Shown one piece after another: positions 7,020 to 62,145 of a stretch of 64,000 bases of DNA. The stretch spans positions 6,386,001 through 6,450,000 of the forward strand of contig NC_086097.1 in NCBI RefSeq assembly GCF_963921235.1. The letters are read 5' to 3'. This stretch comes from Mobula hypostoma (Eukaryota). The notes beneath the pieces are model-generated. The model was not told the DNA's origin. It ran no database searches and saw nothing but the letters and a program-made list of their open reading frames with translations. The first letter of the stretch is position 1; every line of letters starts with the position of its first letter. The position numbers and the translations under genes are program-made.

Positions 7020-8064
7020 GATTCAAAGTACATTTATTCTCAAAGTATGTATGCAGTATACAACCTTGAGATTCAGCTTCCCATGAAACAAAGAAAACCA
7101 TGACACACATTCAAAGAAAACATCAACCCCCCCGCCACACTGTGCAAAAAAATGCACAAATGGCAAAAAAAAAAGAGTGAAAAACACAGGATATAATACA
7201 CCAAACTACAAAAGTTATTGAAAGTGTCCAGGCATATTCAGTTCAACTCAGCTCAGTTCAATCTAGTGCTGTATCGCTTGTCATCTGCTGGCCACTTTGA
7301 TCAAAACACGCTGGAGGAACTCAGCAGGTCGGGCAGCATCCGTGGAAACTATCAGTCAATGTTTCGGGCCAGAACCGAAATGTTGACTGATCGTTTCCAC
7401 GGATGCTGCCCGACCTGCTGAGTTTCTCGAGGGTGTTGTGAGTGTTGCTTTGACCCCAGCATCTGCAGAGTATTTTGTGTTTACGCTTTGATCAAAATTG
7501 CCCAAAATAGCAACAAAAAAAAGGAGTGACCAGAAAGCAGAAACATATCATAATGTGAATTATAGAATGCAATCCACAATCTGTGTCAATTAAACCTTCC
7601 CCAAGACCCAGGACTCCAGCAGAATCCCCCAACAGCATCGAGTGAGATGGAGAGAGAGGCTATTTGAATGCAGTGATGCTGCTCTGGCAGCAGTGAGTGA
7701 GAGGCTGATAGATGTTGCTGAACATCCCCTTGCCTTCCGCTCTCACTTCGATGATTTCAATCTTCCTTGATGCTTCAATTGGTAAGATCATAGAGTAACG
7801 GAGTCGATCATGGATTCACGATCTGTCTCCAAGTTTCTTGGCCTCAAGGCTGCATACTTTGTTTGAGACCACACCCTTGGAGACAGCAAAGCACCAGATC
7901 ACTCAATCGGCCCAAAGACATGACATCAAAATGTAAATTGTGGGCTCCAGCAGTAGCAGAACCACATTTGAAAGAAAACAAAGACAGAAAGTAAGAGAAG
8001 AAAAGCATCATGAACTGTCTGAGGGCTGTCGCCATCGGTCGCGTTGTTCACTGGTGCCATCTTG
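7020..8064 (-). mobile_element. Non-autonomous SINE-like element (CAAGATGGC head, LINE-like tail)
   Basis: gccatcttg at ~8056-8064 reads caagatggc on the minus strand. The tail complement ttcaaagtacatttatt..aaagtatgtatgcagtatacaacc matches the tails at ~12400-12457 and ~33100-33155. Confidence 0.65.
7307..7485. mobile_element. Penelope-derived hairpin mini-insertion
   Basis: About 60-bp inverted arms plus a ccagcatctgcaga tail; flanked by a 12-bp direct repeat ctttgatcaaaa (7295-7306 and 7486-7497). Confidence 0.85.
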
Positions 8065-8888
8065 TCACCCAGGTTAATTAAAGCCAAAGATGTAATGTTA
8101 GAAAGCTCTACCTGTGGACGGATGAAAATGAAGTTTACCAAATTAAAAAAAAATAGAGAACTTGGAAAGCAAGAGAAATGTAGCAAGCTATTAGAAACTA
8201 AAGATGTAAACTGTTAAAAGTGGAATTAGTAGTGAGTATCTATACCTTACTTACTTGAAAACCTCGGGGTGAAACCCCTGGAGGAGAGACAATATTGATA
8301 AAAGATCTATTGAAGCTACAGCTATAAGAAGCAGCAGCTACATCGAGACAATATCGGTAGAGGCAAGTGTCCAAGATCTCTACCGTGTAACTGGAAATCA
8401 GTTTTGTTAAAGCACACCGAAGGATTTGATGAGCTGAAACTTTTACTGTTCTGAGTGTATAATTTATGTGTGAAGTGGTGTTGTAACTGTGAAATGTTTG
8501 TAAATGACAGTGATGTTAAGTTATTTTGAAATAGAAAATAGAATGTGTGTAAAAACTTACAGATTGTAATCCTGCTGTACACAGGTCATTTTTTTTTTTG
8601 TATAAGTTTGTGAATCGACTTTTCGTGGATGATCAATTATTTCATCCAATGAACCAATAGCAAGATGGCAAGCGACCCAAGATCGAAGAACCAGTGCAGC
8701 ATGAAATGCTTAATGGTGTAGATGATTTAATATGGTTGGATGTATAATTTTATTTTCATTTGAAGGAACTGAATTTGATTTTCTTCAAGAACTGATTACT
8801 TTTGCAATAATTTTGATAAGTTACTGCATGAGATTTACTTTGTTTAAAAGTTGTGATGCTGGAGAATTTTTGTGTAAGGAGATAAGCT

Positions 8889-8927
8889 GTGTGTGCGTAT
8901 ATATACATACATATATATATATACACG

Positions 8928-9009
<82 letters not shown>

Positions 9010-9010
9010 T
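8889..9010. repeat. (TA)n/(CA)n compound microsatellite
   Basis: Directly visible. Confidence 0.98.
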
Positions 9011-9759
9011 ATTTTTATTTGAATATGTAGACATATTGACTGGAACTGAAACTGAAGTTAGCCATAATACTTCAGAATAGGAATTCAAATAGTTTTCTAA
9101 CTAACAGAGATAAATAAAATGAAATGTTAGTCTGTAAACTTTTAAATAGAGAATAATACTAGATCTAATTAGTTGGAGAAATTTGAGTAATAAAGGTCAT
9201 TCTAATGAATATAACTGCTTCTAACTAAAAAACAGGAAGTTGGTTTTTGTTTGATATCTGAGATTTGAAACCTAACAGAATGTTGGAATTTTGAAATATT
9301 CTTACTCATGTAAATATTTTGTATATCCATTTTTTTTTAAATAATCAAAACTTACCTCCAGAAGTTTGTGTTTTCTATTCATAGCCTCCTTCCGATACCT
9401 GGAGCTTCTGGTGACTTTCTAGCACCTAGTGTAGTACTATCTGATTTGATTTTTCTCATGAAGAGTGAAGAGATCAGTCACAAGAAATAAGACCAGCACT
9501 ACACAGGTGTTACAAATTTCTTCCTGAATATAATTGGAGATACATGATGCTGGGATATGGAACAACAGATACATATCTGCTGGAAGAACACATACAGAGC
9601 TACAATGAAACACTTGTTGTACATACTATTTATACAGATTATATTATTAAGCATTGCATTAAAATAGAACAAAATCAAACAATAACAATGTGAATAACGT
9701 GTAACAGGAACAGAGAAAGTACAATACAGGTAAACAATAGATGTAAGATTATAAAAACA

Positions 9760-10332: not shown

Positions 10333-10369
10333 TAACAAGTTGGGTTGTGAGGTGTCCATCTTATCATAC

Positions 10370-12457: not shown

Positions 12458-12472
12458 TCAATGAATGACTGC

Positions 12473-12999: not shown

Positions 13000-13249
13000 A
13001 ATAAGTTAAATGTATCGAGAACACGAAATGAAGAGTCCTTGAAAGTGAGACTATATTCTGTCCTGGATATCAGTGATTTTGAATCTTAAAGATCTTCATC
13101 CTTTTTTACTGGTACAAAGTATTGCAGATCAGATGAACAGAAGAACACAGCCTAAGAATGCTAGATATTGACACAAAGATTGTCCATTTATTTGCTTCAC
13201 AATAATACTGAATGTAAGTACTGTGATGTTGTAAACTGACAAGAAAATA

Positions 13250-13592
13250 GAAACAAAAGTAAGTCAACGTTTTGGGCTAAGTCTCTTCGCCAACTCTTCT
13301 TCCTATGGTCCATTCTCCTCTCCTATCAGATTGCTTCCTCTCCAGTCCTTTATCTCTAACACCCACCTGACTTCACCTACCTCCTTCTAGCTATTCTCTT
13401 TCCCCTCCCCGCTCCTTTTTATTCTGGCATCTTCCTCCTTCCTTTCCAGTCCTGATGAAGTGTCTCAGCCCAAGACATCGACTGTTTACTTTTTCCCACA
13501 GATGCTACTTGACCTGCTGAGTTCCTCTAGCATCTTGTGTGCGTGTGTGTGTGTTGCTTGGATTTCCAACATCTGTAGATTTTCTCTTGTTT
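13250..13592 (+). mobile_element. Older Penelope-like terminal repeat with degenerate hammerhead motif
   Basis: cagtcctgatgaagtgtctcagcccaagacatcgactg at 13447-13484, followed by gacctgctgagttcctc and the gatttccaacatctg tail. Confidence 0.8.
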
Positions 13593-13879
13593 ATGAAAAA
13601 TAAAAATAAAAACTGTTAGCAGACAATTTGAAAAAAAAGTATCACTGGAAACCTTAGTGTTGTTTCTCATCTGAAACGGTAACTCCTTTTTTTCCCATTC
13701 ATGCTGGCTGACCTGTGGATTTTTCCAGCAGTTTGATTTATGAAACTGGAAGTTTTGGCAATACATTGCAGGTGAGGGAACATCACTGGAAAAAGAATCA
13801 GAGTTAATGGTTCAAATTAACACCTTATAATAAATTTAGGATCCTTTATTATTGTGTTCCTTCAAAGATCTCATGTCTA

Positions 13880-14959: not shown

Positions 14960-15405
14960 GCTCTATGTAGAGTGGATGTGGAGAGGATATTTTCTGTAGT
15001 GAGAGAGTCTGGGACCAGAGGGCTTAGGAAAAGAATGGAGGGATGTCCACTTACAACAGAGATAAGGAGGGTCTCGGCCTGAAACGTTGACTGCACCTCT
15101 TCCTAGAGATGCTGCCTGGCCTGCTGCATTCACCAGCAACTTTTATGTGTGTTGCAGAGATAAGGAGGAACTTCTTTAGCCAGAGTGTGGTGAATTTGTG
15201 GAATCCATTGCCCTGTATGACTGTGGAGGCTGCCATTGGGTATATTTAAAGTGGAGGTTGATAGGTTCTCAATTAGTCGTGGCATCAAAGATTAGAGGGA
15301 GAAGGCAAGCGAATGGGGTTGAGAAGGATAATGAATCGGTAATGATAGAACGGTGGAGCAGACTTCATGGGCTGAATGGCCTAATTCTGCTCCTAAGGTC
15401 CTAAA
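14960..15405 (+). mobile_element. CR1 3' fragment interrupted by a Penelope repeat piece (15071-15154)
   Basis: CR1 3' motifs; the insert is flanked by 14-bp cagagataaggagg (15057-15070 and 15155-15168). Confidence 0.88.
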
Positions 15406-15787: not shown

Positions 15788-16500
15788 TCATCATCATCAT
15801 CATCATCATTAGGTGCCGTGCCCAGTTTGAGCTTTGACTGCCATGGCCCACACACTCCTGTTTCTGGTCAAGTGGATCAATTCATTGGTATTCATTTCCA
15901 ATTCTCTGGCTGCTGTCTCCATCATCATTTGTCTTTGTCTTCCTCTTGCTTTCTTCCCTTCAATCTTTCCCATAATTACTGTGCATTCTAACACTTCTTT
16001 CCTAATCGCATGTCCAATGAAGTTATGTTGCCTTTTCATGATCTCATACATTATTTCTCTTTTTGTGCTTGCTCTGTTCATGACATCCTCATTAGATATT
16101 TGTTTTGTCCATGATATTCTTTGCATCCTCCTCAAAAACCGCACCTCTGCTGCTTCAATTCTATTCCTCATGTTATGAGATATTGTCCAACATTCTGAGC
16201 CATATAACATAACTGGATAAACGTGACATTTCAGTACTCTGAGGGGGGTTGTCATGCCTAGTTTAGTGTTGGTCAGTATACTCTTCATTCAACACACAAA
16301 AGGTGTGTTTTGCCATCCCTATTCTTCTTTTGATGTCTGCGTCGCACCTGCCATCTGATGTCACCAGCTTCCTAAGTAGCAAAAGTTCTGTACTTGTTTT
16401 ATGTCTTCCCCGTTTATTCTCAGCCTGCAGATAGGATTCTCCTTCTTTTTGGATATCACCACACATTCTGTCTTTTTGCAATTGATAGATAGACCCATTT
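15788..16500 (-). mobile_element. RTE-clade LINE 3' fragment
   Basis: ORF 15809-16288: LLYG-like MLYGSECWTI, IEAAEVRFLRRM..ISWT, GKIEGKKARGRQR; (GAT)n tail. Confidence 0.93.
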
Positions 16501-20574: not shown

Positions 20575-22266
20575 AATTTACTAAGGAAACTGGCATGGAG
20601 TCAATGGAAATAAGGCAAACAAGTAGTGAGGTCATGGAACCTATACAGATTGAGGAGGAGGAGGTGCTTGCTATCTTGAGGCAAATCAGAGTAGATAAAT
20701 CCCCAGGACCTGACAGGGTATTCCCTTGCACCTTGAAGGAGACTAGTGTTGAAATTGCGGGGGCCCTGGCAGATATATTTAAAATGTCGGTGTCTACAGG
20801 TGAGGTGCCGGAGGATTGGAGGATAGCTCATGTTGTTCCGTTGTTTAAAAAAGGCTCTAAAAGTATTCCGAGAAATTATAGGCCGGTAAGTTTGACGTCG
20901 GTAGTAGGTAAATTATTGGAAGGAGTACTGAGAGATGGGATCTACAAGTATTTGGATAGACAGGGACTTATTTGATAGAGTTAACATGGCTTTGTGCGTG
21001 GTAGGTCATGTTTAACCAATCTGTTAGAGTTTTTTGAGGAGGTTACCAAGAAAGTGGATGAAGGGAAGGCAGTGGATGTTGTCTACATGGACTTTGGTAA
21101 GGCCTTTGACAAGGTCCCATATGGGAGGTTAGTTAGGAAAATTCAGTCGCTAGGTATACATGGAGGGGTAGTAAATTGGATTAGACAATGGCTAAATGGA
21201 AGAAGCCAAAGAGTGGTGGTAGAGAATTGCTTCTCTGAGTGGAGGCCTGTGACTAGTGGTGTGCCACAGGGATCAGTGCTGGGTCCATTGTTATTTGTCA
21301 TCTATATCAATGATCTGGATGATAACGTGGTAAATTGGATCAGCAAATTTGCTGATGATACAAAGACTGGAGGTGTAGTAGACAGTGGGGAAGGTTTTCA
21401 GAGCCTGCAGAGGGACTTGGACCAGCTGGAAAAATGGGCTGAAAAATGGCAGATGGAGTTTAATACAGACAAGTGTGAGGTATTGCACGTTGGAAGGACA
21501 AACCAAGGTAGAACATACAGGGTTAATGGTAAGGCACTGAGGAGTGCAGTGGAACAGAGGGATCTGGGAATACAGATACAAAATTCCCTGAAAGTGGCGT
21601 CACAAGTGGTCGTAAAGAGAGCTTTTGGTACATTGGCGTTTATTAATCAAAGTATTGAGTGTAAGAGCTGGAATGTTGTGATGAGGTTGTATAAGGCATT
21701 GATGAGGCCGAATCTGGAGTACTGTGTACAGTTTTGGTCACCAAATTACAGGAAGGATATTAATAAGGTTGAAAGAGTGCAGAGAAGAAGGTTTAAAAGA
21801 ATGTTGCTGGGACTTGAGAAACTCAGTTACAGAGAAAGGTTGAATATGTTAGGACTTTGTTCCCTGGAGCGTAGAAGAATGAGGGGAGATTTGATAGAGG
21901 TATATAAAATTATGATGGGTATAGACAGAGTGAATGCAAGCAGGCTTTTTCCACTGAGGCAAGGGGAGAAAAGAAACAAGAGGACTTGGGTTAGGGGTGA
22001 AGGGGGAAAAGTTTAAAGGGAATATTAGGGGGGACATCTTCACACAGAGAGTGGTGGGAGTGTGGAATGAGCTGCCAGATGAGGTAGTAAATATGGGCTC
22101 ACTTTTAACATTTAAGAAAAACCTGGACAGGTACATGGATGAGTGGTGTATGAAGGGATATCGTCGAGGTGCAGGTCAGTGAAACTAGGTAGAAATATGG
22201 TTCGGCACAGCCAAGAAGGGCCAAAAGGCCTGTTTCTGTGCTGTAATATTCAATGGTTCTATGGTT
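20575..22266 (+). mobile_element. 5'-truncated CR1 LINE
   Basis: ORFs 20595-20975, 20994-22016 and 21997-22182 with YMDFGKAFDKV, GVPQGSVLGP, KFADDTK; (atggttct)n tail. Confidence 0.97.
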
Positions 22267-23390: not shown

Positions 23391-23428
23391 GTACCCCACA
23401 GTTACTGGGAATATGAGTTGTAGCGTAC

Positions 23429-39493: not shown

Positions 39494-39704
39494 TTTTTTC
39501 TGTGCTTGATAACAAATTTACTTTGAAATTTGAACTAAACTAATCCCTTCTGCCTACACAATATGCAGGTCCTTTCATTTTCCTCACATTCACATGCCTA
39601 TCTGAATGTCTCGTAAAAGTCTCTAACGTCTCTGCCTCTACCAGCACCCCAGCCTCACATTCCAGACACCCACCCCTATCAGCATAAAAAAAAATTGCCT
39701 TGTC

Positions 39705-40005
39705 TTTCTTCCCAGACCTCCTGTCCCATGATCCTCTCATATCCCTTTTGCCAATCACCTGTCCAGCTCTTGGCTCCATCCCTCCCCCTCATGTCTTCTC
39801 CTATCATTTTGGATCTCCCCCTCCCCCTCCAACTTTCAAATCTCTTACTCACTCTTCCTTCAGTTAGTCCTGACGAAGGGTCTCGGCCTGAAACGTCGAC
39901 TGCACCTCTTCCTAGAGATGCTGCCTGGCCTGCTGCGTTCACCAGCAACTTTGATGTGTGTTGCTTGAATTTCCAGCATCTGCAGAATTCCTGTTTTTCG
40001 CGTTT
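39705..40005 (+). mobile_element. Solo Penelope-like terminal repeat (pLTR)
   Basis: Near-identical to 43845-44097, which lies downstream of the GIY-YIG ORF. Confidence 0.92.
39866..39901 (+). ncRNA. Minimal type I hammerhead ribozyme motif
   Basis: AGTC CTGACGA A GGGTCTCGGCCT GAAA CGTC GACT: both core boxes, stem I AGUC/GACU, GUC triplet; predicted cut after 39897. Confidence 0.8.
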
Positions 40006-40038
40006 AATATACATCTACTGGTAATGTGGAGTAAATGG

Positions 40039-40918: not shown

Positions 40919-41978
40919 TTTCACTTTAAAAACTCTCCCGCACAGGTTTCCTGTCATCATCAGGTACAATGGACAGCCACCACTGGTAATATAACTATTA
41001 TGATCATAGATTTTGGAGTAGTGGAGGTATAATTTGTCCATCTGTGCTGATCACCCCATCCTTGACTAAGCTGTTCCACCGTGAACATGATCTGTTATGA
41101 GTCAACATGATGCTTTCAGATCAGGTCATGCACAGCACAGACCTCCGCCGCACTGCTCAGGTGTGTTTCTGGGGTACAGGGGCTAGCGACCCTTGTGCCT
41201 GTTCTGTGTTCTATGCTGAGCAGCAGTGAACCATCTGATTGGCCTATCAGAGTTCTCTTTGGGAACTAGTTGACTTGATCAGCATTTCTGATCTGGCCAT
41301 TGTTCACCATTGCACTTAATAAAAAAGAAAGTTTGTACTGGTAACTTTGCTGTTTGCTGCTTCGGCTATGAGCATCTAGCTATGATGGATGATGAGAAAA
41401 CCACTTTCTCCCAATTTAAATAGCTTATTTTACTTTGAATGGGAATGGGAAACAGGTACCACCATCAACTGCCTGAACTACAGTTTTATTCCATTATATT
41501 AATTGAGACAAGTGTACAGTGTTGCAATTTGGGAGGACACCATCCAGGGTAGGACTTACACAGTGAGTGGTCTGGAAACGAGGAGTGCGGTAGAACAGAG
41601 AGATCTGGGAATACAGATCTGTAATTCATTGAAAGTGGCGTATTGGCTTTCATAAATCAATGTATTGAGTACAAGATTTGGAATGTTATGCTGAATTTGT
41701 ATAAGCTGTTGGTGAAGCCTAATTTGGAGTATTGTGTATTGAGTATTTCACACACATCTGCTCTCACTCCATCCTCCCACCACCCCACTAGGAATAGGGT
41801 TCCCCTGGTCCTCACCTACCACCCCACCAGCCTCCGGGTCCAACATATTATTCTCCGTAACTTCCGCCACCTCCAACGGGATCCCACCACTAAGCACATC
41901 TTTCCCTCCCACCCCCCGCTTTCCACAAGGATCACTCCCTATGCAACTCCCTTGTCCATTCGTCCCCCACCATCCCTC

Positions 41979-43249
41979 TGTCACAATGGTGGGGCATTGG
42001 AAGCAAGGGTGGACCCAAATGCAAGACACATCTTGTGAGGTTACGGTTTGGACTCCGAGCCCGAGACTGGGCAAGGACACAGTACCTGGGTCTTGCCTCG
42101 GGCTCGGACCCCAGAACCAGGCATGGACAAGACATGGGCTAGGGAGAGGAGGAACATGGAAAAACAGAGGCTCGATCTCGGGAAAGCAGGTACATGGAAC
42201 CATGGACACATACACAGAACACAGAGTCCGGACCCCTCCTTGGAAACAGGACTTAGGGCCGGGACTCACACACAGAACAGAGAGCCGGGACCCCTCCATG
42301 GGAACAGAACATAGGGCCGGGACTTATGACTTCCCCCTCCCCCCCACCGCGGGGCAACAGCAAGACGGCCTGACTTACCCCACGGAGGTGAGAACAAGAC
42401 AAGATAAGACATGACCCCCTGCCGAGCAACGGCAAGACAGCCTGACTTACCCCACGGAGGCGAGGACAAGACAAGACAAGACATGACCCCCCCATAGAGC
42501 AACAGCAAGACGGCCTGACTTACCCCACGGAGGCGAGGACAAGACAAGACAAACACCAAAGAACAACACAGTTCCTATCTAGCTCCAGCCATAGAACAAG
42601 ACCAAGGTGCAGGCGAGGGCTACAGACGAGGGATGGAGGCGAGGGGGCAGAGAAGGGACTCAGACACGGGAGTAGGACAGGAATCACAGACCGCCAGGGC
42701 CAGGACTTGACTAGCTACTCAGATGCCACTAGGGCCAGGACGTGACTTGGTACTCGGATCCCGCCAGGACCAGGACTTGACTTGGACGTGGTACTTGGAT
42801 GCCACCAGAGCCAGGACCTGGATGTGGTGCTTGGAACCGCCGGGTAGTGGCGAGCTCTAGACTCAGCCCAGGAACAGTAGACAGCGGCTCCTGATTCTCT
42901 CCGGCAGGTTAACCGACGGACCCACCTTGATGAGGAAACCTTGCAGGCTCGCTTCGGCGAGGTAACTGGACAGGGTTGCTCCGGTGAGGAAAGGCGAATT
43001 ACCGGGACTCGCTTCGGCAGAGACTAGGCTTGCTCCGGCCAGATGACATCGGCACACCGTACCTTTGATGACTTTGCAGACGCTCCCGCCCGAACAGCTG
43101 AAAGCCGAAGACTATAAACTACCAGTTCAGCCGAGCATTAATTGCCTCTATTCACCAAAGCCGAGGGACACGGGAAAACAGGGAATCAACGGTCCAGATC
43201 GTAACATGAACAAGGTAAATTTAAAGGGACCCCGATCCAGACCATGACA
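41979..43249 (-). mobile_element. Solo LTR with internal minisatellites
   Basis: TGTCA...TGACA ends and 5-bp TSD ccctc (41974-41978 and 43250-43254); interrupts the Penelope ORF. Strand is inferred. Confidence 0.9.
42205..42845. repeat. Three tandem arrays (~59, ~72 and ~37-40 bp units) inside the LTR
   Basis: cacagaaca.agag.ccgg.acccctcc x2; gcaagacggcctgacttaccccacggagg.gag.acaagacaagac x3; gccagggccaggac.tgac x4. Confidence 0.85.
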
Positions 43250-43995
43250 CCCTCCCCACCCATCTCCCTCCTGGCACTTATCCTTGTAAGCGGAACAAGT
43301 GCTACACATGCCCTTACACTTCCTCCCTCACCACCATTCAGGGCCCCAGACAGTCCTTCCAGGTGAGGCGACACTTCACCTGTGAGTCGGCAGGGGTGAT
43401 ATACTGCGTCCGGTGCTCCCGATGTGGCCTTTTATATATTGGCGAGACCTGACGCAGACTGGGAGATCGTTTTGCTGAACACCTACGCTCTGTCCGCCAG
43501 AGAAAGCAGGATCTCCCAGTGGCCACACATTTTAATTCCATGTCCCATGTCCCATTCTCATTCTGATATGTCTATCCACGGCCTCCTCTACTGTAAAGAT
43601 GAAGCCACACTCAGGTTGGAGGAACAACACCTTATATTCTGTCTGGGTAGCCTCCAACCTGATAGCATGAGCATTGACTTCTCAAACTTCCGCTAATGCC
43701 CCATCTCCCCCTCGTACCCCATCCATTATTTATTTATATACACACATTCTCTTTCTCTCTCTCTCCTTTTTCTCCCTCTGTCCCTCACTATACCCCTTGC
43801 CCATCCTCTGGGTTTTCCCCCCTCCCCCTTTTCTTTCTCCCTGGGCCTCCTGTCCCATGATCCTTTCATATCCCTTTTGCCAATCACCTGTCCAGCTCTT
43901 GGCTCCATCCCTCCCCCTCCTGTCTTCTCCTATCATTTTGGATCTCCCCCCTCCCCCTCCCACTTTCAAATCTCTTACTCACTCTTCCTTCAGTT

Positions 43996-44031
43996 AGTCC
44001 TGACGAATGGTCTCGGCCCGAAATGTCGACT
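43996..44031 (+). ncRNA. Minimal hammerhead ribozyme motif (partly mutated)
   Basis: AGTC CTGACGA A TGGTCTCGGCCC GAAA TGTC GACT; the stem II closing pair and the ACGU palindrome are altered. Confidence 0.65.
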
Positions 44032-44789
44032 GTACCTCTTCCTAGAGATGCTGCCTGGCCTGCTGCGTTCACCAGCAACTTTGATGTGTGTTGCTTGGAG
44101 TGTATTGTGTATAGTTCTGTTCACTGACCTTCAGGAAAGGTATCAATAGGATTAAAAAAGTACACAGAAAATTTACAAAGATGTTGCCAGGACTTGCAGA
44201 CCTGAGTAATTGGGAAATGTTGAATAGGTTAGGTCTTTTTCCCTACAGCATAGGAGAATGAGGGGAGATTTGTTAGAGCTATACACAATTTATGAGAAGT
44301 ATAGGTAAGGTAAGGTTGTGATGGAAATTCAGATGAAGAGTAGGCTGAAGAGCCTGTTTCTGTACTGTATGACTCCATCATTTTATGAATCAGATTTGGA
44401 CCAATTAGATCTCTGAACCATCTCCAAATAAAGATTGCCTGTTCACATCTTGGCCTGGATAATTGAATTGCAGTTTTATTTAATTTGCAATTAATCAAAC
44501 CTTGAACATGATTGGTGAGTGCAAAAATGCCCAGCTACTGAATCATGAATTAAAAATTTGTCTTGTCAGATTAATAATGTATTGAATGAATGGGCATTGA
44601 CACTGATAAAATGATACGTAATGGTCATTCTTGTCAACAATGTACATAAAGTATAAATCTTTAAAAATAGGAACTGACTTCTTCCCTTAACTTCTAATTC
44701 TTCTATTACATTAAATAAGAAAAGGAATGACATTTAGTAGATATGGATAAATGTGATAATATATTGATTTATCTCTGCAAATTAAACAA

Positions 44790-45628: not shown

Positions 45629-45849
45629 TGGTAACACACACAAAACGCTGGAGGAATTCAGCAGGTCAGGCATCTATGGACATGAATAAAGAATCAACAC
45701 TTCAATTCAAGACTGAAGAAGGGTTTCAGGCCAAAAAGTCAACTGTTCATTCATGTCGATAAATGGTGCCTGACCTGCTGAGTTCCTACAACATTTTGTG
45801 TGTGTTACTCTCGATTTCCAGCTTCTGCACAATTTCTCATGTTATATGT
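45629..45849. mobile_element. Penelope-derived hairpin mini-insertion (degenerate)
   Basis: Inverted arms aacacacacaaaa..tcagcaggtcaggca / tgcctgacctgctga..ttttgtgtgtgtt; TSD tgcagatta (45620-45628 and 45850-45858). Confidence 0.8.
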
Positions 45850-48580: not shown

Positions 48581-49347
48581 GCTATTAAACTTAGTTTTGA
48601 TTCTGATTTTCCTTTATAGTGGAATTTTAAATTATGAGGAATAGCTTCAGAGTAAGAAATCTCTGAATTAAGGCAGAGTTGAGGAGGAATATTTTCTACA
48701 TTGAATCTTTGAAATTTTACCCAAGGGAGCTGTGGAAATACATTCAGGACTTACAGCAGGTAGGCAATCTTCTGATGAACATTGCCTTATTGAATGGCAG
48801 ATCAAGCTCTGTCTGTATGAATCTTGCTACTACTTCACGTGTACTTATGTATCAGAAACAGAACTTCTCTTTATAGACTCCTGAAAAATATAATTCTGAT
48901 CAGAAAGCACTGAGGATTAGAGTGAACAATATCTACTTTTTGACTAACAGCAAAGACAGGGGATTTCTCGGAGGGAAAAACTGAAAGAAGTTTTCTGACT
49001 GTTGTCATTGGTGTCCTTGAGAAGAAACCCAATTGTAACTAAACTGCGGTTATAAACACAAGAGATTCTGCATGTGCTGGAGATCCAGAGTAACGCACAC
49101 AGAAACACGAGGAAATCTGCAGATGCTGGAATTTCAAGCAACACACATAAAAGTTGCTGGTGAACACAGCAGGCCAGGCAGCATCTCTAGGAAGAGGTAC
49201 AGTCGACGTTTCAGGCTGAGACCCTTCGGTCAGGGCTAACTGAAAGAAGAGCTAGTAAGAGATTTGAAAGTGGGAGGTGGAGGAAGAGATCCGAAATGAT
49301 AGGAGAAGACACCAATTTCAAATCTCTTACTAGCTCTTCTTTCAGTT

Positions 49348-49383
49348 AGTCCTGATGAAGGGTCTCGGCCCGAAACGTCGATT
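49348..49383 (+). ncRNA. Minimal type I hammerhead ribozyme motif
   Basis: AGTC CTGATGA A GGGT-CTCG-GCCC GAAA CGTC GATT; predicted cut after 49379. Confidence 0.82.
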
Positions 49384-49504
49384 GTACCTCTTCCTAGAGA
49401 TGCTGCCTGGCCTGCTGCGTTCACCAGCACTTTTTATGTGTGTAACACACACAGAATGCTGGAGGGATTCAGCAGGTCAGGCAGTATCTATTGAAATGAA
49501 TAAA

Positions 49505-49542
49505 CAGTCAACGTTTCGGGCTGAGACCCTTCATCAGGACTG
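49505..49542 (-). ncRNA. Minimal type I hammerhead ribozyme motif
   Basis: Minus strand reads CAGTC CTGATGA A GGGT-CTCA-GCCC GAAA CGTT GACTG; 5-bp stem I and a GUU triplet. Confidence 0.8.
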
Positions 49543-50944
49543 GGAAGAAAAGGAATAAGAAGGTGGGGGTGAGGAGAAGGAGTTGATTGATGAAACCAGG
49601 TGGGTGGAGAAGGGGCTGAAGCTTGGAGGTGATAGGTGAAAAAGGTAAAAGGCTGGAGAGGAAGGAATCTGTTAGGAGAGGAGCGGACCATGGGATAAGG
49701 GGAAGAAGGAGGGGCATCATGGGAGGTGATAGGCAGATGAGGAGAAGAGGAGAGGTGTGAGGGAAGCCAGAATGGGGAATTGCAGAGATGGGAAGAGGGA
49801 GGGGAAAAATGACCAGAAGTTAGAGAAATTGATACTCATGCCATCACGTTGGAGGCTACTCAGACAGAATAAGAGCTGTTGATCTTCCAAGCCGGGAATG
49901 GCCACATTGTGGCAGTAAAGGAGGATATAAACTGACATACCTTCTTACTTTGTTCCGCCTCCCCCCCCCCCAACACCCACCTGGCTTCACATATCATCTT
50001 TTAGCTTCTGATCCTTCCCCTCTCCCCACCTTCTTATTTTAGCTTATTCCCCTTCCTTTGCAGTGCTAATGAAGGGACTCAGCCCAAAATGTTGACTGTT
50101 CATTCATTTCCATAGATGCTACCTGACCTGCTGAGTTCCTCCAACGTTCTGTGTGAACAGCAGTTGTGGATTATTTATCTCAACTCTGCCGGAGGGAGAA
50201 GGCCTGGGAATTTCCTCAGAGCAGCTCATTGTGTTGTTTCTTCAGTGGATTAGGAGAAGCTCCAGGGAAATATTCTGACCTGAGAGCTTTCTGTCAGAAC
50301 AAAAACAACATAGAGACGATTATATATCTTGGAACCACCAAGGGACTTTCCTATTATTCTCCCTGAATCAGCACTCTGGTGGCTCAGTTTAAATTTAGGT
50401 GGTTTTAATTCCAGCCTCCCCAGAACTTTCTATCAAAGATCCAAAACAAGATAAAAGAAATGTTGGGTTGTAATTACTGCAGGATGCTTGCTCCCACTAC
50501 GGAATGATGTGGCATTCAGTTAACAATGTGCAGGCACCAAACGTTATAGAATAGCATTCGAACCACATTCCTACTCAGAAGGTAAACATAATCCTCTGAG
50601 AATAAGCCTAGATTAAAGGTATTCTTTGTATATGCTAACACTGAATTACTCCGCTACAATGACAGGTCCATGTTTTTTGACCACAAGGAATACCTCTTCA
50701 TATGTTTCAGCTTTTAGGCTGACAGAAGCAATCATACTCTCAATTAGTGTACATGTTACAGAACTGCATATTATAAGCAAACGAGCTTTACTTTTGACAA
50801 AGGTTGCAAGCCCACTTGTTTCAAAGCAAATGCTGAAGGAGCAAAATTTGCCTTTGGGCTCCAGCACTGAATTGGTGTCTGGACATTGCTGGTTTCAGTC
50901 CCCCCTTGGTCCCAAAAAGGATTGCACAAAAAAGAAGAAAGGAA

Positions 50945-51508: not shown

Positions 51509-54500
51509 AAAGAAAGAAAGGAAGAGCAAGAATGTGATGCTGACGCTTCATAAGTTACAGGGCAGATCACATTAGGAATATTGCAAGCAGTTTTGGGACC
51601 CTTATCTGAAAAAACCTGTGAAGGGCGTGCAGTCATGATTGCTTTAAGCATTTCAATGTCTCAGAAGACATACCCTCCTCCCTCATTTGTTGAGCTAATC
51701 AGAGAACGTGATGGAGGAGCGGAAGGCCTCCGTCAGCAGGGCAAAGTCCTCAGCAGGAGCGTTTGTTGCTGAAGCCACCCCCTGATACCACACAAGCGGG
51801 GTTTTGTAGGATGTGGTGAAAAACCTGCAAGCCCAGGTGTCTTGGTTGATGTCAGCTCATCCTGCCACCAAGTGTGACAAGTCTGATAGGAAACTGAACC
51901 CAGAGGGATGCTACTGACAGGAGTCTCTTAACAAGCAAAGCAACCAGTGTTTTCTGTTACAACTGTGGAGAGGATGGATATTTCAAGTAGGAGTGTGAAG
52001 GACAGGAAAACCTTCGGAAAGCAACCCAATGGTTTCTTACAAAGTCAGGAAATTTTGGAAAGACCCAGTAAAGGGAATGGCCTGGCATTTCGGGGTAACA
52101 TATTAAAATCAACGTATCAAGGAATATACTAAAGTGCAAAACCCTATTCCTGAAGGCTCAGAGGGGCCGAGCTCCAGTGTATCTATACAGATTGAAGGTA
52201 TTTATGCGACAGCCATACTTGACATGGGCCCTCAGGTTTACTCAATTGTACCAATCCTTTTACAACCGGTATCTGACGCATTTACCAATGATACCACTCA
52301 GTGCCCTAGTGCTCCGGGGCCTTATTACTGATGACTACTTGTATGATGGCTACTCGTTGAAGCTGGAGTTTTTGGGAGAAGATGTTAAAGTTCGATGATG
52401 CCTTTTCTACTGATGAGTTCGATGTAGGTTGTTCCAAGAGTAGTCGCCGCACAATGCAAGTGACAAAGGACACCCCTTTCAGAGAAAGGTCTTGACAGTT
52501 AGCACCGGCAGCGGTGGAAGGTATTCAGCAGCACCTGCTGAAACTGAAGGAAACTGGAATTATCACTGAGTCAAGGTGTCCTTTCGTGTCACCCATGGTG
52601 GTGGTGAGGAAGAAGAATGGGAAGGTACGAATATGTGTTGACTATTGAACAGTTCCCAGCCAATATACTGTTCCATAGATCAAGAATTCTCTGACCTGTC
52701 TGAGTGGAGCAAGTGTGCTGGACCTGAGGAGTGGGTGTTATCAGATACCCATGAACAAAGCTGACAAAGAGAAGACTGCATTCATATGTCCACTTGGATT
52801 CTTTCAGTGTGAAAGAATGCCCCAGGGTGTACCAGAAGCACCAGTTATTTTCCAACATGTCATGGAGAAGACTGTTGGGGACATGAACTTGCTTGAAGTA
52901 CTGGTGTACTTGGATGATCCACAGTGCTCTGGTCTACAATGGAGGAGTACGAGGTGAGGCTACTGAAGGTGCTAGACTTCCTGAAAGCTGAAGAATTCAA
53001 ACTGTCACTGGACAAGCGCCAGTTCTGTAAGATGTCAATCAACTATGTCAGGCACAGAGTCTCACAGAATGGAATAGCTACAGATCCATCCAAGATAGTG
53101 ATGTTGACCCCATGGCCAAGGCCCAAGAATGTGAGTGCTCCAAGCTTGTTCCTTGGATTCTGTGGGTACTACCAGAGATTTGTGAAGTTCTACTCCAAAG
53201 TAAAGCATGCTTTGAATCAGCTGCTGTGTGGGTACCCTTCCTTGGGGAAGGAAGGAAGGAGAAGAAGGTCAAGTTTATCTTAGCTCTTTGGAGCCTTTTA
53301 AGAAAATATGGGATGCAAAATGTGAAGAAGTCCTTCAGCAACAGAAAGAGTTGCCGACTAAAGCACCTGTGTTGGCATTTTCAAACCACCAATTGCCATA
53401 TGTACTGCATGTTGACAGCAGCAATGAGGGTTTAGGGGGTATTCTATATCAGGACCAGGACAGAGGATTGAGACCTGTTGTTTTCATCACCCAGAGTCTG
53501 TCACCCTCAGAATGAAACTACACTACACACAAATTGGAGTTTCCTGCATTGAAATGGGCTGTGATGGATAAGTTAAATAACAAGGGGAGGACTGACAACA
53601 ATCCATTGACTTATATCCTGATCTTGGCGAAGTTGGATGCATCAGGCCATCGTTCGTTGGCGGTAATGTCTGCTTATGATTTCAGCCTGAATTATCTGCC
53701 GGGGAGCCAGAACATTGATGCAATGTATTGTTCCGACATTCGCATGAGGTGCTGGAAATGGACGGAGACTGGGAGAACCTTTCTGCCTCTGGTGTTAAAG
53801 CAATGTGTCAGCTTTCCACCATGGGGTAATAAGAGGCAAGGCTGTGGCAGGATAGAGCTATGGATTATTTGCGAGCTTCTGCACCATTCCACAAACTTAC
53901 TGAACTTGACTGCTCTGGATATGAAGCAGTTGCCTGCCCTGAATCCTGAGGAATTGGCAGCAGTACAAGGAGATGATCCTTGTATAGGTGCCATTTGGTC
54001 ACCTGTTGCAAAAGGGGATATGGCCTGAGTTGAAAAGGCGAATCACCCTACAATACCCCTACTGACAAGAGGATGGAACAGACTGGAGTTGAGGAACCAG
54101 GTTCTATACCGGGTCTTGTCCTCTTCAGACAAGCCTCAGCGTTCTCAGTTGATTTTGCCTGAGAAGTATCAGAGGATTGTGTTGAAGTCACTTCATGATA
54201 ATTCAGATCATTTGGTGTTTGACAAGACCTACAGATTGGTCTGAGATGTTCTATTGGCCCTGAATGAAACCTGAGGTTGAAGAGTACTGGAAGTCGTACA
54301 TTTGATGTATTTGGACGGAGACGTTGCCTATCAGAGTTGCTGCATTATCCCATTTACAGAGTGTGGAGCCACTTGATTTAGTGTGTTTGGATTTCCTCTC
54401 CATAGAGGAGATGTGAATATCTTGATCATCACTGATCACTACACCAGAAAAAGCTCAAGGATCAGAGAGCATCCACAGTCACCAAAGTGTTATGGGAGAA

Positions 54501-54945
54501 GTATTTTGTTCATTATGGCCTCCCAAGAAGGATACACAGTGATCAGGGAAGGGATTTTGAGAATTGGCTCATACTGAGGATGCTTGGCATCGAGAAGTAA
54601 ATGGTCACGCCTTATCACCCTCAGGGTGATCCCCAGCCTGAAAGGTTCAGCCAGACATTGTTAGACACGCTTGGAATTCTGGAAATCAGCAAAAAATAAC
54701 AAGTGGTGCCAGCATATTGAACATTTGGTCCACTGCACAGTTATACACAGAATGAGGCCACCAGATACTCGCCATACTACTTGATGTTTAAGCGAGAAGT
54801 GAAATTCTGTAGATCTCTCTTTTAGAGCCAGTGGGGAAGACTTGCTACTGAGTGTGTGTCTGACATGAGGAAAGAACTGTAGAAGGCTTATGAGCTAGCA
54901 GATGTCTTTGCTACCAGGCAAAATCATGGAAACACAAGGAGATAT

Positions 54946-55629
54946 TGGATTATGAGGACACTCAGTCCTTGTTTATTGTCATTCAGAAATGCATGCATTA
55001 AAAAATGATACAACGTTCCTCCAGAATAATAGCACAAGAAAACACAGGACAAACCAAGACTAAAACTGACAAAACCACATAATTATAACATATAGATACA
55101 ACAGTGCAAAGCAATACCATAATTTGATAAAGAGCAGACCATGGGCACGGTAAAAAATGTCTCAAAGTCCCGATAGACTCATCAACTCATGCAGGCGGCA
55201 GAAGGGAGGAACTCTCCCTGCCATGAACCTCCAAGTGCCGCCAACTTGCCGATGCAGCACCATTGGAAGCACCCGACCTCAGTGGACTCTGAGTCCGTCC
55301 GAAAACGTCAAGCCTCTGACCAACCCCTCCAACACAGCCTCTCCGAGCACCATCCTCTGCCGAGCGCTTTAACCCCGCCTCAGCCACCGAGCAACAAACA
55401 AAGCTGTGGACTCGGGGCCTTCTCCTCCAGAGATTCCGGATCACACAGTAGCAGCAGCAGCGAAGGAGGCATTTCAGAAGTTTCACCGGATGTTCCTCCA
55501 TGCTCTCACATCCATCTCCATCAAATCAGGATTGTGCACGGCACCCTACTTGACAAATAGCAGGCATCACCACTGGAGTGGCCGCTGTGAGCTGCGCCAT
55601 GCCACCATCTTCTCCTCCCGATCACTGGC
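54946..55629 (-). mobile_element. SINE-like element (relative of 23429 and 34440) inserted in the Gypsy integrase
   Basis: Same ~200-bp tail but a diverged body; head gggaggagaagatggtggc on the minus strand; gatat flanks both sides. Confidence 0.85.
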
Positions 55630-56502
55630 GGATATGATTAAAAGATTAGATTCTCTCAACTGATAACCGGAGACAGCATTTTAATAAGAAATTTGGGGCT
55701 ACCAGAGAAGCATAAGTTAGCTGACCACAAGGTGTCTGTGCACTGTGGAGTGCAGAGTCAGATGCCAAATGTGGCAGTTTTCTAGGTGAAACCAGAAGAT
55801 GCAAATGGACCTGTCAAAATTCTCCTTCGGAATCACTTTTTAACCCTAGGGCATGAAGTACGTGCTGACTCAGAGCTTGGTATGGCACCTACACCAAGTT
55901 GGAGAACTTTGTGCAGAAGGAGGAGAACAGAAAGGCAAATAGCGGAAAGACCAGAATAGGAGCCAACCACTGAATGCTGTATGGATTCAAGAGTGTGAGA
56001 AATGAGGGTGAGGTATACGTTACCCTAAGCAAACTCCCCAAACATTGATGAAGAGATTCCTGGCTCTCCCAACACAGGCTCAGATGTAACACAAGGAGGA
56101 GGGGAACAGCAGTGGACAGGCAGACGCGACACTAGACAGTGAAGGGAAATTGGGCTGTAATGTAATTTGGGAAGAAGCTGGGCTCAGTCAGGTGACAGGG
56201 GGACCTGAGTTGCCGGAAGACATGAGTAATCGGCAGTGGGCAGCATCCCCAAGTGAACAGGGAAGGTCTCGAGGAGTGTCTGAGGCTGCAGAAGCTGAAG
56301 ATGAAATAAGAAGGTGTGAGAGAATTGGGAAACCTTTAGATAGGGTGGCGTATGATGCACCAGGGAAGCAGAGTGTTGCGTCCATCCCCATAATGGGATA
56401 TGTTCCTGCCATTTACAAATGGCTTGGAAGTCTTGAAATCATGAAATTTATTTGAATACTGTGCTATTAATATTGGCTTGATAAATTTCATGACTTATTT
56501 TT

Positions 56503-56515
56503 GATGGGGGGAGAA
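56503..56515 (+). other. Polypurine tract
   Basis: gatggggggagaa lies immediately before the LTR TG. Confidence 0.85.
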
Positions 56516-58215: not shown

Positions 58216-58310
58216 TAGCCTCTTCGCCTTCTACACCTTATGAAATAAACCATAAAAAAATCCAAAACCTTGGTGTGTAACTGTTTCAATGTGCTTTCTC
58301 TCATAACATT

Positions 58311-59140: not shown

Positions 59141-59439
59141 TCTACTTTCTGTCTACTTTCTGTTTTATAAGTTGAATCATTCATAGTAAATCACTGGGAA
59201 TGATGACAGCTATGATATCAGAATCCAAAATCCAGTTGTAATGTTAGGAACAATACTGTTCAGCTCATGTAAGAAATGTAATGTTTACTTAGCTAAAGGT
59301 CTGTCTCGGGAGAGGTGACACCAGAGGTGGTGTGGTGCATTATCCATGCTCAATTGGGAGTTGGTCCCTCCCATTGGTGCTGCCCTCCAGTGTTTGTTTG
59401 GTGGAAGACAAGTTTGAGGAGAGAGTAGGTCACCAAAGA

Positions 59440-59946
59440 CTCACAAGTTTCTACAGATGAACTGTGGAGAGCATTCTAACTGGCTGCATCTCCGCCTGGT
59501 ATGGAGGGACCTCTGCACAGGATTGGAAAAAGCTGCAGCCAGATATAAACTCAGTCAGCTCTATCATGGGCACTAACCTTCCCAGCATTGAGGAGATCTT
59601 CAAAAGGCAATGATTTAAAAAGGTGGCATCTATCATTAAGTGGCTCCATCGCCCAGGACATGCCCTCTTCTCATTGCTACCATCAGGGCAGAGGTACAGG
59701 AGAGTCAACATTTCAGGATCAACTTCTTCCCCTTTGCTATCAGATTACTGAATGAAGGATGAGCCCATGTACATTACCTCATTTTTTTTAGCTCTCCTTT
59801 CGCACTACTTGACCAATTTAATTCTTTTATGTATTTCTTCTTATAATTTATATTTTTTAAATTATTTTGTATTGCAATGTACTGCTACTGCAAAACAACA
59901 AATTTCACAACATATGCCAATGATATAAAACCTGATTCTGATTCTG
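59440..59946 (+). mobile_element. Rex1/Babar 3' end
   Basis: ttctacagatg.actgtggagagcattctaactggctgcatc; (cctgattctgattctga) tail. Confidence 0.88.
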
Positions 59947-60754
59947 ACCACATATGAAAAGGTTAGTGTGTAGAATCGCTAAAGTCTAAGCCAATTGAAG
60001 ACATAATTCTGTTTGTGTCATCAGAACAGCACATTATCATGTGGTTTAATGCTGCTGAATCTTTTTACCTCTGTTCTTCGAAACTCCTGTAATTAAATTA
60101 AATTTCAAATGGAGAGCAGATTTTCTGCTGTGAGCTATTGTGTCCACTATGCATCATTTATAAAAAGTTATTTTACTTGTGTCAAACTTCGACATATTAC
60201 ACATCACCCACAGAAAAATAATAGATTAGATGGCCAGACAGGCAGATAATTCAATTGGAGAGTGATGAGAAATATTTTATATTAAAAAAGTTTGGAAAAA
60301 CTAATAACATCATTACTCATTCCATTAGATCACTGGTTCAGTGAAACAGAATCATAATCTATTTTAAATTTAGAAAATGTTGGTTGAATGAATTAAATGA
60401 ACAATTAAAAAACAACCAGATCATATATTCAAGGTTATTGCAATTGTGGAGAATAATTAATTCATATTAATACTTGCTATGTACTTATATGGGGAAAGCA
60501 TGTAATTGTCATGAGCCCCTGTGCACCTGTATTTGCTAATTGTTTTCTTATCTAGAGATGCTAAGCCCATAAGCTTTCTGTTTAATCTTGTCAAGCTTAT
60601 TATGACTGGTGCAAGTTTTCCATACTGTGATTATTTAAAGTGGACTCCCAATTAACACTGATCTTGGGTACAGGGTTTTTTTTATAGAATATGACGAATA
60701 AACAGGAATAGGATACTAGGATGGTCAAAGATGGGAGGGTGAAGTGTAGGTTTG

Positions 60755-60822
<68 letters not shown>

Positions 60823-60830
60823 CGTGCGTG
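60755..60830. repeat. (TA)n(TG)n microsatellite
   Basis: Directly visible. Confidence 0.97.
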
Positions 60831-61129
60831 ATTGGGTGAAGGGATTTAGAATGTATGTCTAGTGCACATTCTGGAGCAGAGGGTGGCGGTAATGCACCAT
60901 TAAGCTGGATGCCAACCGCCGTAAAACAAGATACAGACAGACAGAACGCTGATCTTGCAGTCCTTGTGTTTTGAGAAAAATTGGTCCCACGGTTTCACTT
61001 GGTCAAGCCATCAATGTTCTGTTGGAAGTCCAATGAATAATCTCTTGTCTCTGTTTCTACATGGTTGTCTGTCATTCCTCTGCAACTGGTTTCAGTTGTT
61101 GTCAGTGCACACCGTGACAGTATTGTACC

Positions 61130-62145
61130 ATAAATCTACAGGCCAGGCCAGAGAGAGGCTTTCAACTTGGGCAGTAAGGGACACCTCAGGGATGTGTGCT
61201 TAGCCCACTGCTCTACTCACTCTACAGCCATGACTCTGTGTGTAGGCACAGCTCAAGTGCCATCTATAAATTTGCTGACAATGCAAATATTAGTGAAGTT
61301 TCAGATGTTGACAAAAGGGCATACAGGAGTGAGATTTATCAGCTAATTGAGTGGTGTTCCAGCAGCACCCACTGCCCTCAGCATCAGTAAGACCAAAAAA
61401 CTGATTGTAGATTTCCGAAGGGGTAAAATGAGGAAACACACACCAGTTCTCACAGTGGGATCAAAAGTGGGAAGAGTGAACAATTTCAAGTTCCTGGATG
61501 CCAATATCTTTGGGAGTCTATCCTGGACCCAACATATCAAAGCAGCTACATAGAAGTCATGACAGTGGCTATAATTCATTAGGAGTTTGAGGACATTTGG
61601 AATGTCATCAAAGGCACTTGGAAATTTTTACACATGAACTGTGGAGAGCATTCTAACTAACTGCATCATTGTCTAGTCTGGGTGGCTACTGCACAGGATG
61701 CAAATAAGCTGCAGAGCACTGTAAACTTAGGCACACAAAATGCTGGAGGAACTCAGCAGGCCAGGCAGCATCTGTGAAAAAGCGTGAACAGTTGATGTTT
61801 CAGGCTGAGACCCTTCATCAGGTCTTTGGTGGGTGCTGCTTTTGATTTCCAGCATCTGCAGATTTTCTTGTGTTTATAAACTTTGTCAGCTACATCATGG
61901 GAACTAGTCTCCATAGTATTCAGAACATCTTCAAGGAGTAATTCTTCAAAAACCCCATCACCCAGGTCATGCCTTGTTCTCATTGCTACCATCAGGAAGG
62001 AGGTACAAAAGCCTGAAGGCACAGACTCAACGATTCAGGAACAGCTTCTCCCCTCTGCTATCCGAGTTCTGAATGGACAATGAATCCATGAACACTACTG
62101 CATTACTTTTTTATCTGTATTTTTGTGCTACTTACTTATTTTAAG

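What the first reader, a model, noticed from the sequence alone, without database searches (positions are those of the whole stretch)
7295..61883. ORF-less Penelope mini-insertions with hairpin architecture and their own TSDs
Seen: 85-340 bp inserts made only of pLTR sequence, most as an inverted partial copy followed by a direct copy, each flanked by a direct repeat. Examples: 7307-7485 (ctttgatcaaaa), 15071-15154 (cagagataaggagg; no inverted arm), 45629-45849 (tgcagatta), 49105-49447 (cacacagaa) and 61729-61876 (taaactt). Several junctions fall inside or next to the hammerhead (7362-7376, 15071, 61822). Inference: these may be a non-autonomous, retrozyme-like or MITE-mimicking class formed by self-primed or template-switched reverse transcription of short ribozyme-containing RNAs.
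Basis: partly seen in the sequence, partly recalled or inferred. Interest (0 to 1): 0.7.

Follow-up and report, generated by a model that had tools for sequence, protein, structure and literature searches.

The report
Stub-sized Penelope retrotransposon hairpin insertions
The small hairpin-shaped inserts are real, but they look like very short, separately made insertions of a known jumping gene (a Penelope-like retrotransposon), not a new self-spreading class; their one open point is that copying often seems to stop inside the element's ribozyme, never at its cut site.

Summary
All five inserts and their flanking duplications (7-14 bp) are confirmed. They are 3' ends of Penelope-like elements (PLEs) with a minimal hammerhead. 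A longer copy of one family in the window carries the broken end of a Neptune/Nematis-type GIY-YIG ORF, so the stubs grade into ordinary 5'-truncated copies. All 5 hairpins are head-to-head, with one arm ending in the 35-40 nt PLE 'tail' and one stopping short of it; this pattern is published for PLEs. No two centres match, so there is no sign of a master mini-element. Retrozyme and MITE membership tests fail. Of 15 arms, 7 start inside the hammerhead (-36 to -6) and 0 at the predicted cut. The clustering is only suggestive (scan-corrected p 0.012 by arm, 0.06-0.34 by insertion). Best model (inferred): the PLE protein nicks both target strands, primes cDNA from both nicks at two fixed start sites, both cDNAs stop early, and their ends are joined. 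The scan noted similar fold-back stubs before on shark DNA (AI notes, not checked here).

The parts
7295..7306 (.). left target-site duplication (12 bp) of hairpin 1; right copy 7486-7497
7307..7376 (-). hairpin 1 inverted arm, family C, short terminus; 5' end about -18 from the predicted cut (stem II 5' arm), 2-4 nt shared with the other arm
7375..7485 (+). hairpin 1 direct arm with tail; starts at -9
13301..13596 (+). family B direct arm with tail, starts about -178; a weak inverted relic lies beside it at 13249-13297
15071..15154 (+). family A single-arm stub, -17 to short terminus, in a LINE fragment; 14-bp TSD 15057-15070/15155-15168; 3-nt microhomology (AGG) with the TSD at its 5' join
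39698..40003 (+). family A truncated copy with tail, starts about -199, no TSD found; used as reference
39866..39902 (+). minimal type I hammerhead motif (stem I, CUGANGA, stem II, GAAA, CG palindrome, predicted cut after 39897)
   Evidence: PMC4209133 for the motif class
41740..44101 (+). longer 5'-truncated family A copy with broken ORF end (CX4CxxC, GIY-YIG with CxxC), 332-nt spacer, hammerhead, short terminus; 11-bp TSD 41729-41739/44102-44112; interrupted by a nested insertion at 41979-43249
45629..45702 (-). hairpin 2 inverted arm, family B, short terminus; 5' end about -6; TSD 45620-45628/45850-45858
45700..45849 (+). hairpin 2 direct arm with tail; starts about -31 to -41 (old copy, edge uncertain)
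49052..49945 (-). host hairpin, inverted arm of family B with tail, reaching the ORF end (about -430); interrupted by hairpin 3
49105..49311 (-). hairpin 3 inverted arm, family A, with tail; 5' end about -105; TSD 49096-49104/49448-49456
49312..49447 (+). hairpin 3 direct arm, short terminus; starts about -67; intact hammerhead motif 49348-49384
49972..50155 (+). host hairpin direct arm, family B, short terminus, starts about -125; possible decayed 10-bp TSD (2 mismatches) 49042-49051/50156-50165
61729..61825 (-). hairpin 4 inverted arm, B-like, short terminus; 5' end -28 to -31 (stem I 5' arm); TSD 61722-61728/61877-61883
61824..61876 (+). hairpin 4 direct arm, almost only the tail (starts about +52); barely overlaps the other arm in element coordinates

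Best explanation
Each stub is a one-off, dead-on-arrival insertion made by the protein of an autonomous EN+ Penelope-like element (Neptune/Nematis type). Steps: (1) the GIY-YIG endonuclease nicks both target strands 7-14 nt apart (TSD shown; enzyme inferred). (2) Each free 3'-OH primes reverse transcription on the element RNA, one at the tail end (about +100 from the hammerhead cut) and one at the short terminus (about +62). The two termini are shown; use of both nicks in one event is inferred. (3) Both cDNAs stop early and independently, often while crossing the folded hammerhead (positions shown; preference suggestive; cause inferred). (4) The two cDNA ends are joined with little or no microhomology, giving TSD - inverted arm - direct arm - TSD with the tail on one side (inferred). 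If only one nick is extended, a single-arm stub results (15071, 23960). Ribozyme cleavage is not needed.
For: Exact TSDs of varying length, and clean empty sites in paralogues. The same termini sit on a long copy with a broken GIY-YIG ORF: Pfam GIY-YIG E 1.9e-4, 22.1 bits against a cut-off of 22.6; CX4CxxC upstream and CxxC inside the core, the Neptune/Nematis marks in PMC8557442; 80-95% identical pieces in ray gene models. 5 of 5 hairpins are head-to-head with exactly one tail arm (0.03 if each arm chose freely). The tail arm reaches further 5' in 3 of 5 hairpins and the short arm in 2 of 5, so the arms end independently. 61729 has almost non-overlapping arms, like an L1 twin-priming product. 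In vitro, an Anolis PLE protein nicks and extends both strands, starts at two internal sites that bound the tail, is predicted to be a dimer, and does not need ribozyme cleavage (PMC11167929). In contigs of 4 of 4 runs, long loose ends lie behind 39992, the tail end (455, 441, 108 and 61 contigs). The opposite-strand joints listed are in 1-3 contigs of depth 22-54, not high-copy.
Against: Use of both nicks in one event has not been shown in vivo, and the in vitro work is on another clade (Poseidon). With 5 hairpins, a snap-back followed by trimming of one arm can give the same products. The hammerhead clustering is weak when counted per insertion (p 0.06-0.34). 2 of the 10 insertions examined have no TSD (23960, 39698) and 2 have only weak or decayed candidates (13301, 49052 host). 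The joint table showed 15 rows and hid 71, and counts were incomplete for X1 and X5, so a master hairpin is not excluded. The Pfam score is just under the curated cut-off.
Confidence: 0.65

Rival explanations
1. Short-route initiation: reverse transcription starts at the copy of the two start sites that lies near the 5' end of a full-length transcript and runs off at an RNA 5' end (transcription start or splice boundary) in or just before the hammerhead. The stubs are then a programmed short product, not random drop-off. Compatible with double priming.
For: In the Anolis element the start sites lie 111-118 nt into the ORF, near the 5' end of the message, and product length follows the template's 5' end (PMC11167929). 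7 of 7 window copies that have the upstream sequence show a pyrimidine tract ending in YAG at the 5' edge of stem I; in Drosophila virilis Penelope the intron ends at the 5' end of helix I (PMC4209133). Three arms from two families start at -17/-18.
Against: 5' ends are spread from -6 to -36 rather than at one base. The 45629 direct arm seems to include the YAG and upstream bases, so its template was unspliced. No transcript 5'-end data were available.
Confidence: 0.2
2. Fold-back (snap-back or self-priming): the first cDNA folds back on the hammerhead stems and copies itself; the endonuclease later trims one arm at the short terminus.
For: The 7307 centre is a perfect small hairpin using the stem II arms with 2-nt overlap. 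Self-priming on an antisense template was proposed for PLE palindromes (PMC3846280), and EN-mediated resolution for the tail (PMC8557442).
Against: At 49105 and 61729 the centres show 0-1 nt of overlap. In 7307 and 61729 the would-be copied arm holds tail sequence absent from the first arm, so an extra trimming step must be assumed. The model does not use the both-strand priming seen in vitro.
Confidence: 0.2
3. A separate non-autonomous class: hairpin mini-elements are transcribed and re-mobilised as units, retrozyme- or MITE-like.
For: ORF-less, own TSDs, narrow size range. PLE-derived non-autonomous elements exist (Chlamys MRC1 in PMC8557442; non-LTR retrozymes in bioRxiv 10.64898/2026.07.22.740005). 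One opposite-strand joint (39867 to 39955) is listed in 1 contig of X1 and 3 of X5.
Against: 5 of 5 centres differ and come from at least 3 families; family A arms of different insertions are 92-97% alike, no closer than to the long copies; longer copies of the same families carry ORF; no tandem direct units; several stubs lack the catalytic core; listed inversion joints have single-copy depth.
Confidence: 0.07
4. Templates are ribozyme-cut RNAs, so stubs begin at the cleavage site.
For: An intact minimal hammerhead motif is present in several copies. An earlier AI note reports one such case elsewhere in this genome (e1-7790562; not checked here).
Against: 0 of 15 arms start within -3 to +5 and 0 within +1 to +31, although planted arms there were recovered in 22-25 of 25 trials at +1 to +20 and 16-25 of 25 at +30. 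Arms include sequence upstream of the cut. Cleavage was dispensable in vitro (PMC11167929).
Confidence: 0.03

Closest known systems
Complex insertions of canonical EN+ Penelope-like elements: inverted 5'-truncated copy, 30-40 bp tail at one end, variable TSD (PMC8557442 passages; PMC3846280 passages)
   Same: Head-to-head inverted copy, tail on one side only, 7-14 bp TSD, heavy 5' truncation, hammerhead in the terminal repeat, C-terminal GIY-YIG partner.
   Different: Here both arms are so short that no ORF is left. The published examples I read mostly flank an ORF or a captured sequence, although PMC4209133 notes hammerhead pairs 100-700 bp apart on opposite strands and ascribes dispersed motifs to truncated PLEs.
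Anolis Poseidon (PAc) in vitro insertion (PMC11167929, main text and part of methods read)
   Same: Two internal start sites that bound a tail; both strands nicked and extended; insertion into its own terminal repeat (49105 sits in a family B repeat); cleavage not required.
   Different: Different clade (Poseidon lacks the extra Zn-finger-like motif). The paper's scenario does not explain inverted products or where cDNAs stop.
LINE-1 5'-inverted insertions by twin priming (bioRxiv 10.1101/2024.12.14.628481 passages; original model recalled)
   Same: Two cDNAs primed from the two target ends and joined head-to-head, with a TSD. 61729 fits closely.
   Different: In L1 the second priming site is variable and the arms barely overlap; here it is a fixed site and 4 of 5 hairpins have overlapping arms.
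Metazoan non-LTR retrozymes (PMC7761336 passages; bioRxiv 10.64898/2026.07.22.740005 parts 1-3 of 5)
   Same: ORF-less, derived from the PLE terminal repeat, type I hammerhead, 150-300 bp scale.
   Different: Retrozymes are head-to-tail tandems with a complete ribozyme in each unit and give circular RNAs; these are inverted, single and often lack the core.
MITEs (recalled definition)
   Same: Short, ORF-less, inverted repeat, TSD.
   Different: TSD length varies, the two ends are unequal (tail), sizes and centres all differ, and the partner is a retroelement.

Membership tests
EN+ Penelope-like element insertions (Neptune/Nematis type) | Same termini attached to an ORF with C-terminal GIY-YIG carrying the CCHH cysteines | tested here: met
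   41740-44101 copy: VIY-CxxC-YIG core; Pfam GIY-YIG E 1.9e-4, 0.5 bit under cut-off; family B arm also reaches the same ORF end. Family C (7307) has no ORF-linked copy in the window.
EN+ Penelope-like element insertions (Neptune/Nematis type) | CX2-5CxxC motif upstream of the endonuclease | tested here: met
   CX4CxxC at 43252-43330; diagnostic per PMC8557442
EN+ Penelope-like element insertions (Neptune/Nematis type) | Telomerase-like RT in the same ORF; clade placement by RT tree | not testable with these tools
   No copy in the window reaches the RT; no genome held; homologues showed no RT domain in their listed Pfam entries
EN+ Penelope-like element insertions (Neptune/Nematis type) | Minimal type I hammerhead in the terminal repeat | tested here: met
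   Motif matches at 39870, 44000, 49352, 49537(-), 61821(-); no Rfam hit; cleavage not tested
EN+ Penelope-like element insertions (Neptune/Nematis type) | 30-40 bp tail at one end; inverted 5'-truncated copy; variable TSD | tested here: met
   5 of 5 hairpins, one tail arm each; TSD 7-14 bp
Non-LTR retrozymes | At least two head-to-tail units, each with a complete hammerhead | tested here: not met
   All paired arms are inverted; 7307, 15071, 23960 lack CUGANGA
Non-LTR retrozymes | Self-cleavage and circular RNA | not testable with these tools
   Only assembled contigs were on offer
MITE | Fixed-length TSD, symmetric terminal inverted repeats, uniform size | tested here: not met
   TSD 7, 9, 9, 12, 14 bp; ends differ by the tail; sizes 84-343 bp
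Non-autonomous family copied from a master element | Copies share the same internal junction | tested here: inconclusive
   0 shared among 5 window centres; listed joints single-copy in depth, but 71 rows hidden and counts incomplete

The most novel reading that the evidence does not exclude
The stubs are a programmed short product of the PLE cycle: one RNA is primed twice, from the two target nicks, at two fixed start sites, and the hammerhead region (its fold, or an RNA 5' end or splice boundary beside it) sets where reverse transcription stops without the ribozyme cutting. Ray and shark genomes would then hold a very large fossil record that can test how Penelope elements make inverted ends and what the hammerhead does.
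Probability: 0.3. Interest if true: 0.6.

Novelty: new member of a known kind. Interest (0 to 1): 0.3.

Why it matters
As a class of element it is ordinary: the inverted copy, tail and TSD are described for Penelope-like elements. Its use is as a test bed. How PLEs make inverted ends and what their hammerhead does in vivo are open questions in the papers read (PMC8557442, PMC7761336, PMC11167929). Short TSD-bounded stubs keep both start sites and both stop sites of one event in under 350 bp, so a genome-wide table of them could separate double priming from snap-back and show whether the ribozyme region stops the enzyme. They also matter for annotation, since they can be mistaken for MITEs or retrozymes.

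Tried and rejected
No whole genome is held, so the genome-wide breakpoint table and orthologous empty sites could not be made. A degenerate motif from the repeat's 3' part found 0 loci in viral, metagenome and prokaryote collections, as expected for a vertebrate repeat. Rfam: 0 matches. Unconstrained folding of four intact copies gave a full hammerhead-like fold in only one (49052 host arm) and other folds in three; not used as evidence. PDB search of the ORF piece: only chance-level matches; Pfam on five unjoined fragments: no relevant family. Contig depth on 39689-40018 is flat over 39744-39853, about 2-fold higher below the hammerhead in the three DNA-like runs (2.27, 2.35, 1.87), 9.4-fold in the run guessed to be RNA, and shows no rise at the cut. 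This fits the in-window picture but is NOT counted: the tool states that contig depth cannot rank parts of a stretch, a filter removes records unseen, and other families share the hammerhead. Loose ends before 39866-39867 (515; 465+204; 348; 61 contigs) mix family B upstream sequence with flanks and cannot be split; the cut site is not among the 24 rows shown, but 1294 rows were hidden. 'Goes back 35' joints at 39900-39866 were set aside as probably two family B repeats aligned only at the hammerhead. No RNA holder was listed on record. Three decayed relics (13249-13297, 13671-13735, 13768-13826; nhmmer E 3e-4, 7.5e-6, 0.069) were dropped before the count of 15 arms. The uniform-null p value used n=12 by a miscount; (n=13, scan-corrected) replaces it. 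The empty-site offset for 49105 was 2 nt off; one search replaces it. Arm-versus-arm identity (87-94%) could not tell one template from two. Paper searches for a described ORF-less hairpin PLE class found none, but the library lacks most subscription papers, including the older PLE structure papers, and supplements were not read.
Full report
Setting. The window is repeat-rich vertebrate DNA with many LINE fragments. The ORF piece used below is 80-95% identical to pieces of ray gene models, so the source is probably a ray; I did not identify it further. No whole genome is held, so most evidence comes from the 64 kb itself.

Observation. Random point pairs give repeats this long in 0.1%, 0.03%, 0.4%, 0.4% and 2.5% of 3000 trials. 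Three sit in repeats with paralogues in the window. Removing the insert and one repeat copy restores the host without a net indel in 4 of 4, 2 of 3 and 2 of 5 paralogues for 15071, 49105 and 61729; the other paralogues carry their own small indels. These are true target-site duplications. 7307 and 45629 could not be tested this way.

What the sequence is. A profile search found 15 clear arms in 10 insertions; three decayed relics were dropped. They belong to at least three families: A (arms 92-97% alike), B, and the family of 7307. All share a minimal type I hammerhead with a CG palindrome in place of helix III, the kind described in PLE terminal repeats (PMC4209133, parts 1-2 of 4 read). Family A also occurs as a 5'-truncated copy at 41740-44101 with an 11-bp TSD. 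It carries the broken end of an ORF with CX4CxxC followed by a GIY-YIG core holding CxxC. These are the marks of Neptune/Nematis-type PLE endonucleases (PMC8557442, passages). A family B arm at 49052-49945 also reaches the ORF end. So the stubs are the short end of a series whose 5' ends run from +52 to about -1000 relative to the predicted cut.

The two 3' ends. Arms end either about 62 nt or about 100-105 nt below the cut. The 35-40 nt difference is the PLE 'tail'. In all 5 hairpins (the four cited plus the host of 49105) the arms are head-to-head and exactly one has the tail. In contigs of all four runs laid on 39689-40018, long loose ends lie behind the tail end, so that terminus recurs across organisms A, B and C. 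An inverted 5'-truncated copy, a tail at one end and a variable TSD are published PLE features (PMC8557442 and PMC3846280, passages). The tail ends match two internal start sites of reverse transcription in vitro (PMC11167929, parts 1-2 of 4).

The 5' ends. Relative to the cut: -18 and -9 (7307), -17 (15071), -18 (23960), -6 and about -35 (45629), about -30 and +52 (61729), -105 and -67 (49105), about -430 and -125 (host), -178, -199 and about -1000 (old copies read partly by eye). 7 of 15 fall in -36 to -6; 0 fall at the cut or within +1 to +31. Missing short arms is not a detection failure: planted arms starting at +1 to +20 were found in 22-25 of 25 trials and at +30 in 16-25 of 25. The clustering is p = 0.012 for 13 arms after correcting for the choice of window, but only 0.06-0.34 when each insertion counts once. 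It is suggestive, not established. Contig depth pointed the same way but cannot be used (see Tried and rejected).

Mechanism. Sense-RNA self-priming predicts tail-to-tail repeats (PMC3846280) and is out. Plain cDNA snap-back predicts that the copied arm is contained in the first arm, which fails for 7307 and 61729. Centres show 2-4 nt of overlap at 7307, 0-1 nt at 49105 and 61729, and are unclear at 45629 and the host. The simplest account of all five is double priming: both nicks are extended, one from each start site; each cDNA stops on its own; the ends are joined. If the two start sites lie on one RNA, one arm always has the tail, and a stalled follower gives the tail-only arm of 61729. 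Why stops lean to the hammerhead is open: a pause at its fold, or run-off at a nearby RNA 5' end. A pyrimidine tract and YAG abut stem I in 7 of 7 copies that have that stretch, as does the intron end in Drosophila virilis Penelope (PMC4209133).

Is it a new class? No. Retrozymes need head-to-tail units with whole ribozymes (PMC7761336 passages; bioRxiv 10.64898/2026.07.22.740005 parts 1-3 of 5); these are inverted and often lack the core. MITE features fail. No centre recurs in the window, and the inversion joints listed have single-copy depth, although that table was cut. Five paper searches showed no paper devoted to ORF-less hairpin stubs, but PMC4209133 already notes opposite-strand hammerhead pairs 100-700 bp apart and ascribes dispersed motifs to truncated PLEs. 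Earlier AI notes of this scan describe like stubs in shark windows and the same repeat elsewhere in this genome; I had reached my reading before seeing them and do not count them as support.

Verdict. Real, correctly described, and mostly explained: very short de novo insertions of a known retrotransposon class. The leftover of value is a testable hint about how PLEs make inverted ends and where copying stops. Interest 0.3.

Noticed in passing
41979-43249: A 1271-bp insertion starting TG and ending CA, with a 5-bp duplication, interrupts the long family A copy. It holds short internal tandem repeats; it looks like a solo LTR or internally deleted LTR element.
   Followed up: partly
39835-39867, 43965-43997, 49317-49349, 13417-13449: A pyrimidine tract ending in YAG abuts the 5' edge of hammerhead stem I in 7 of 7 copies with that stretch: a possible 3' splice site, as in D. 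virilis Penelope.
   Followed up: partly
49096-49456: A family A hairpin sits inside a family B terminal repeat, at that repeat's short terminus: a possible case of insertion into its own kind of end.
   Followed up: partly
13249-13297, 13671-13735, 13768-13826: Three decayed relics of the same repeat type; the first may be the inverted partner of the 13301 arm.
   Followed up: no
52918-56455: Broken reading frames that resemble the RT/RNase H region of a Ty3/Gypsy-type retrotransposon (recalled resemblance; two pieces gave no Pfam hit).
   Followed up: no
4503-5982, 20791-22264, 22386-23392, 28147-29602: Long LINE fragments with RT frames of 250-370 codons (RVT_1 E 8e-33 for 5008-6111); 15071 and the 41740 copy are inserted in such fragments.
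   Followed up: no
15809-16288 (- strand): A 159-aa frame resembling the C-terminal end of an RTE-type LINE (recalled resemblance; no relevant Pfam hit).
   Followed up: no
43252-43548 homologues: Several ray gene models named as host genes (mucin-2, divergent protein kinase domain 1C, chitinase domain protein, NLRP3-like) contain this retrotransposon endonuclease piece: mis-annotation or exonisation.
   Followed up: no
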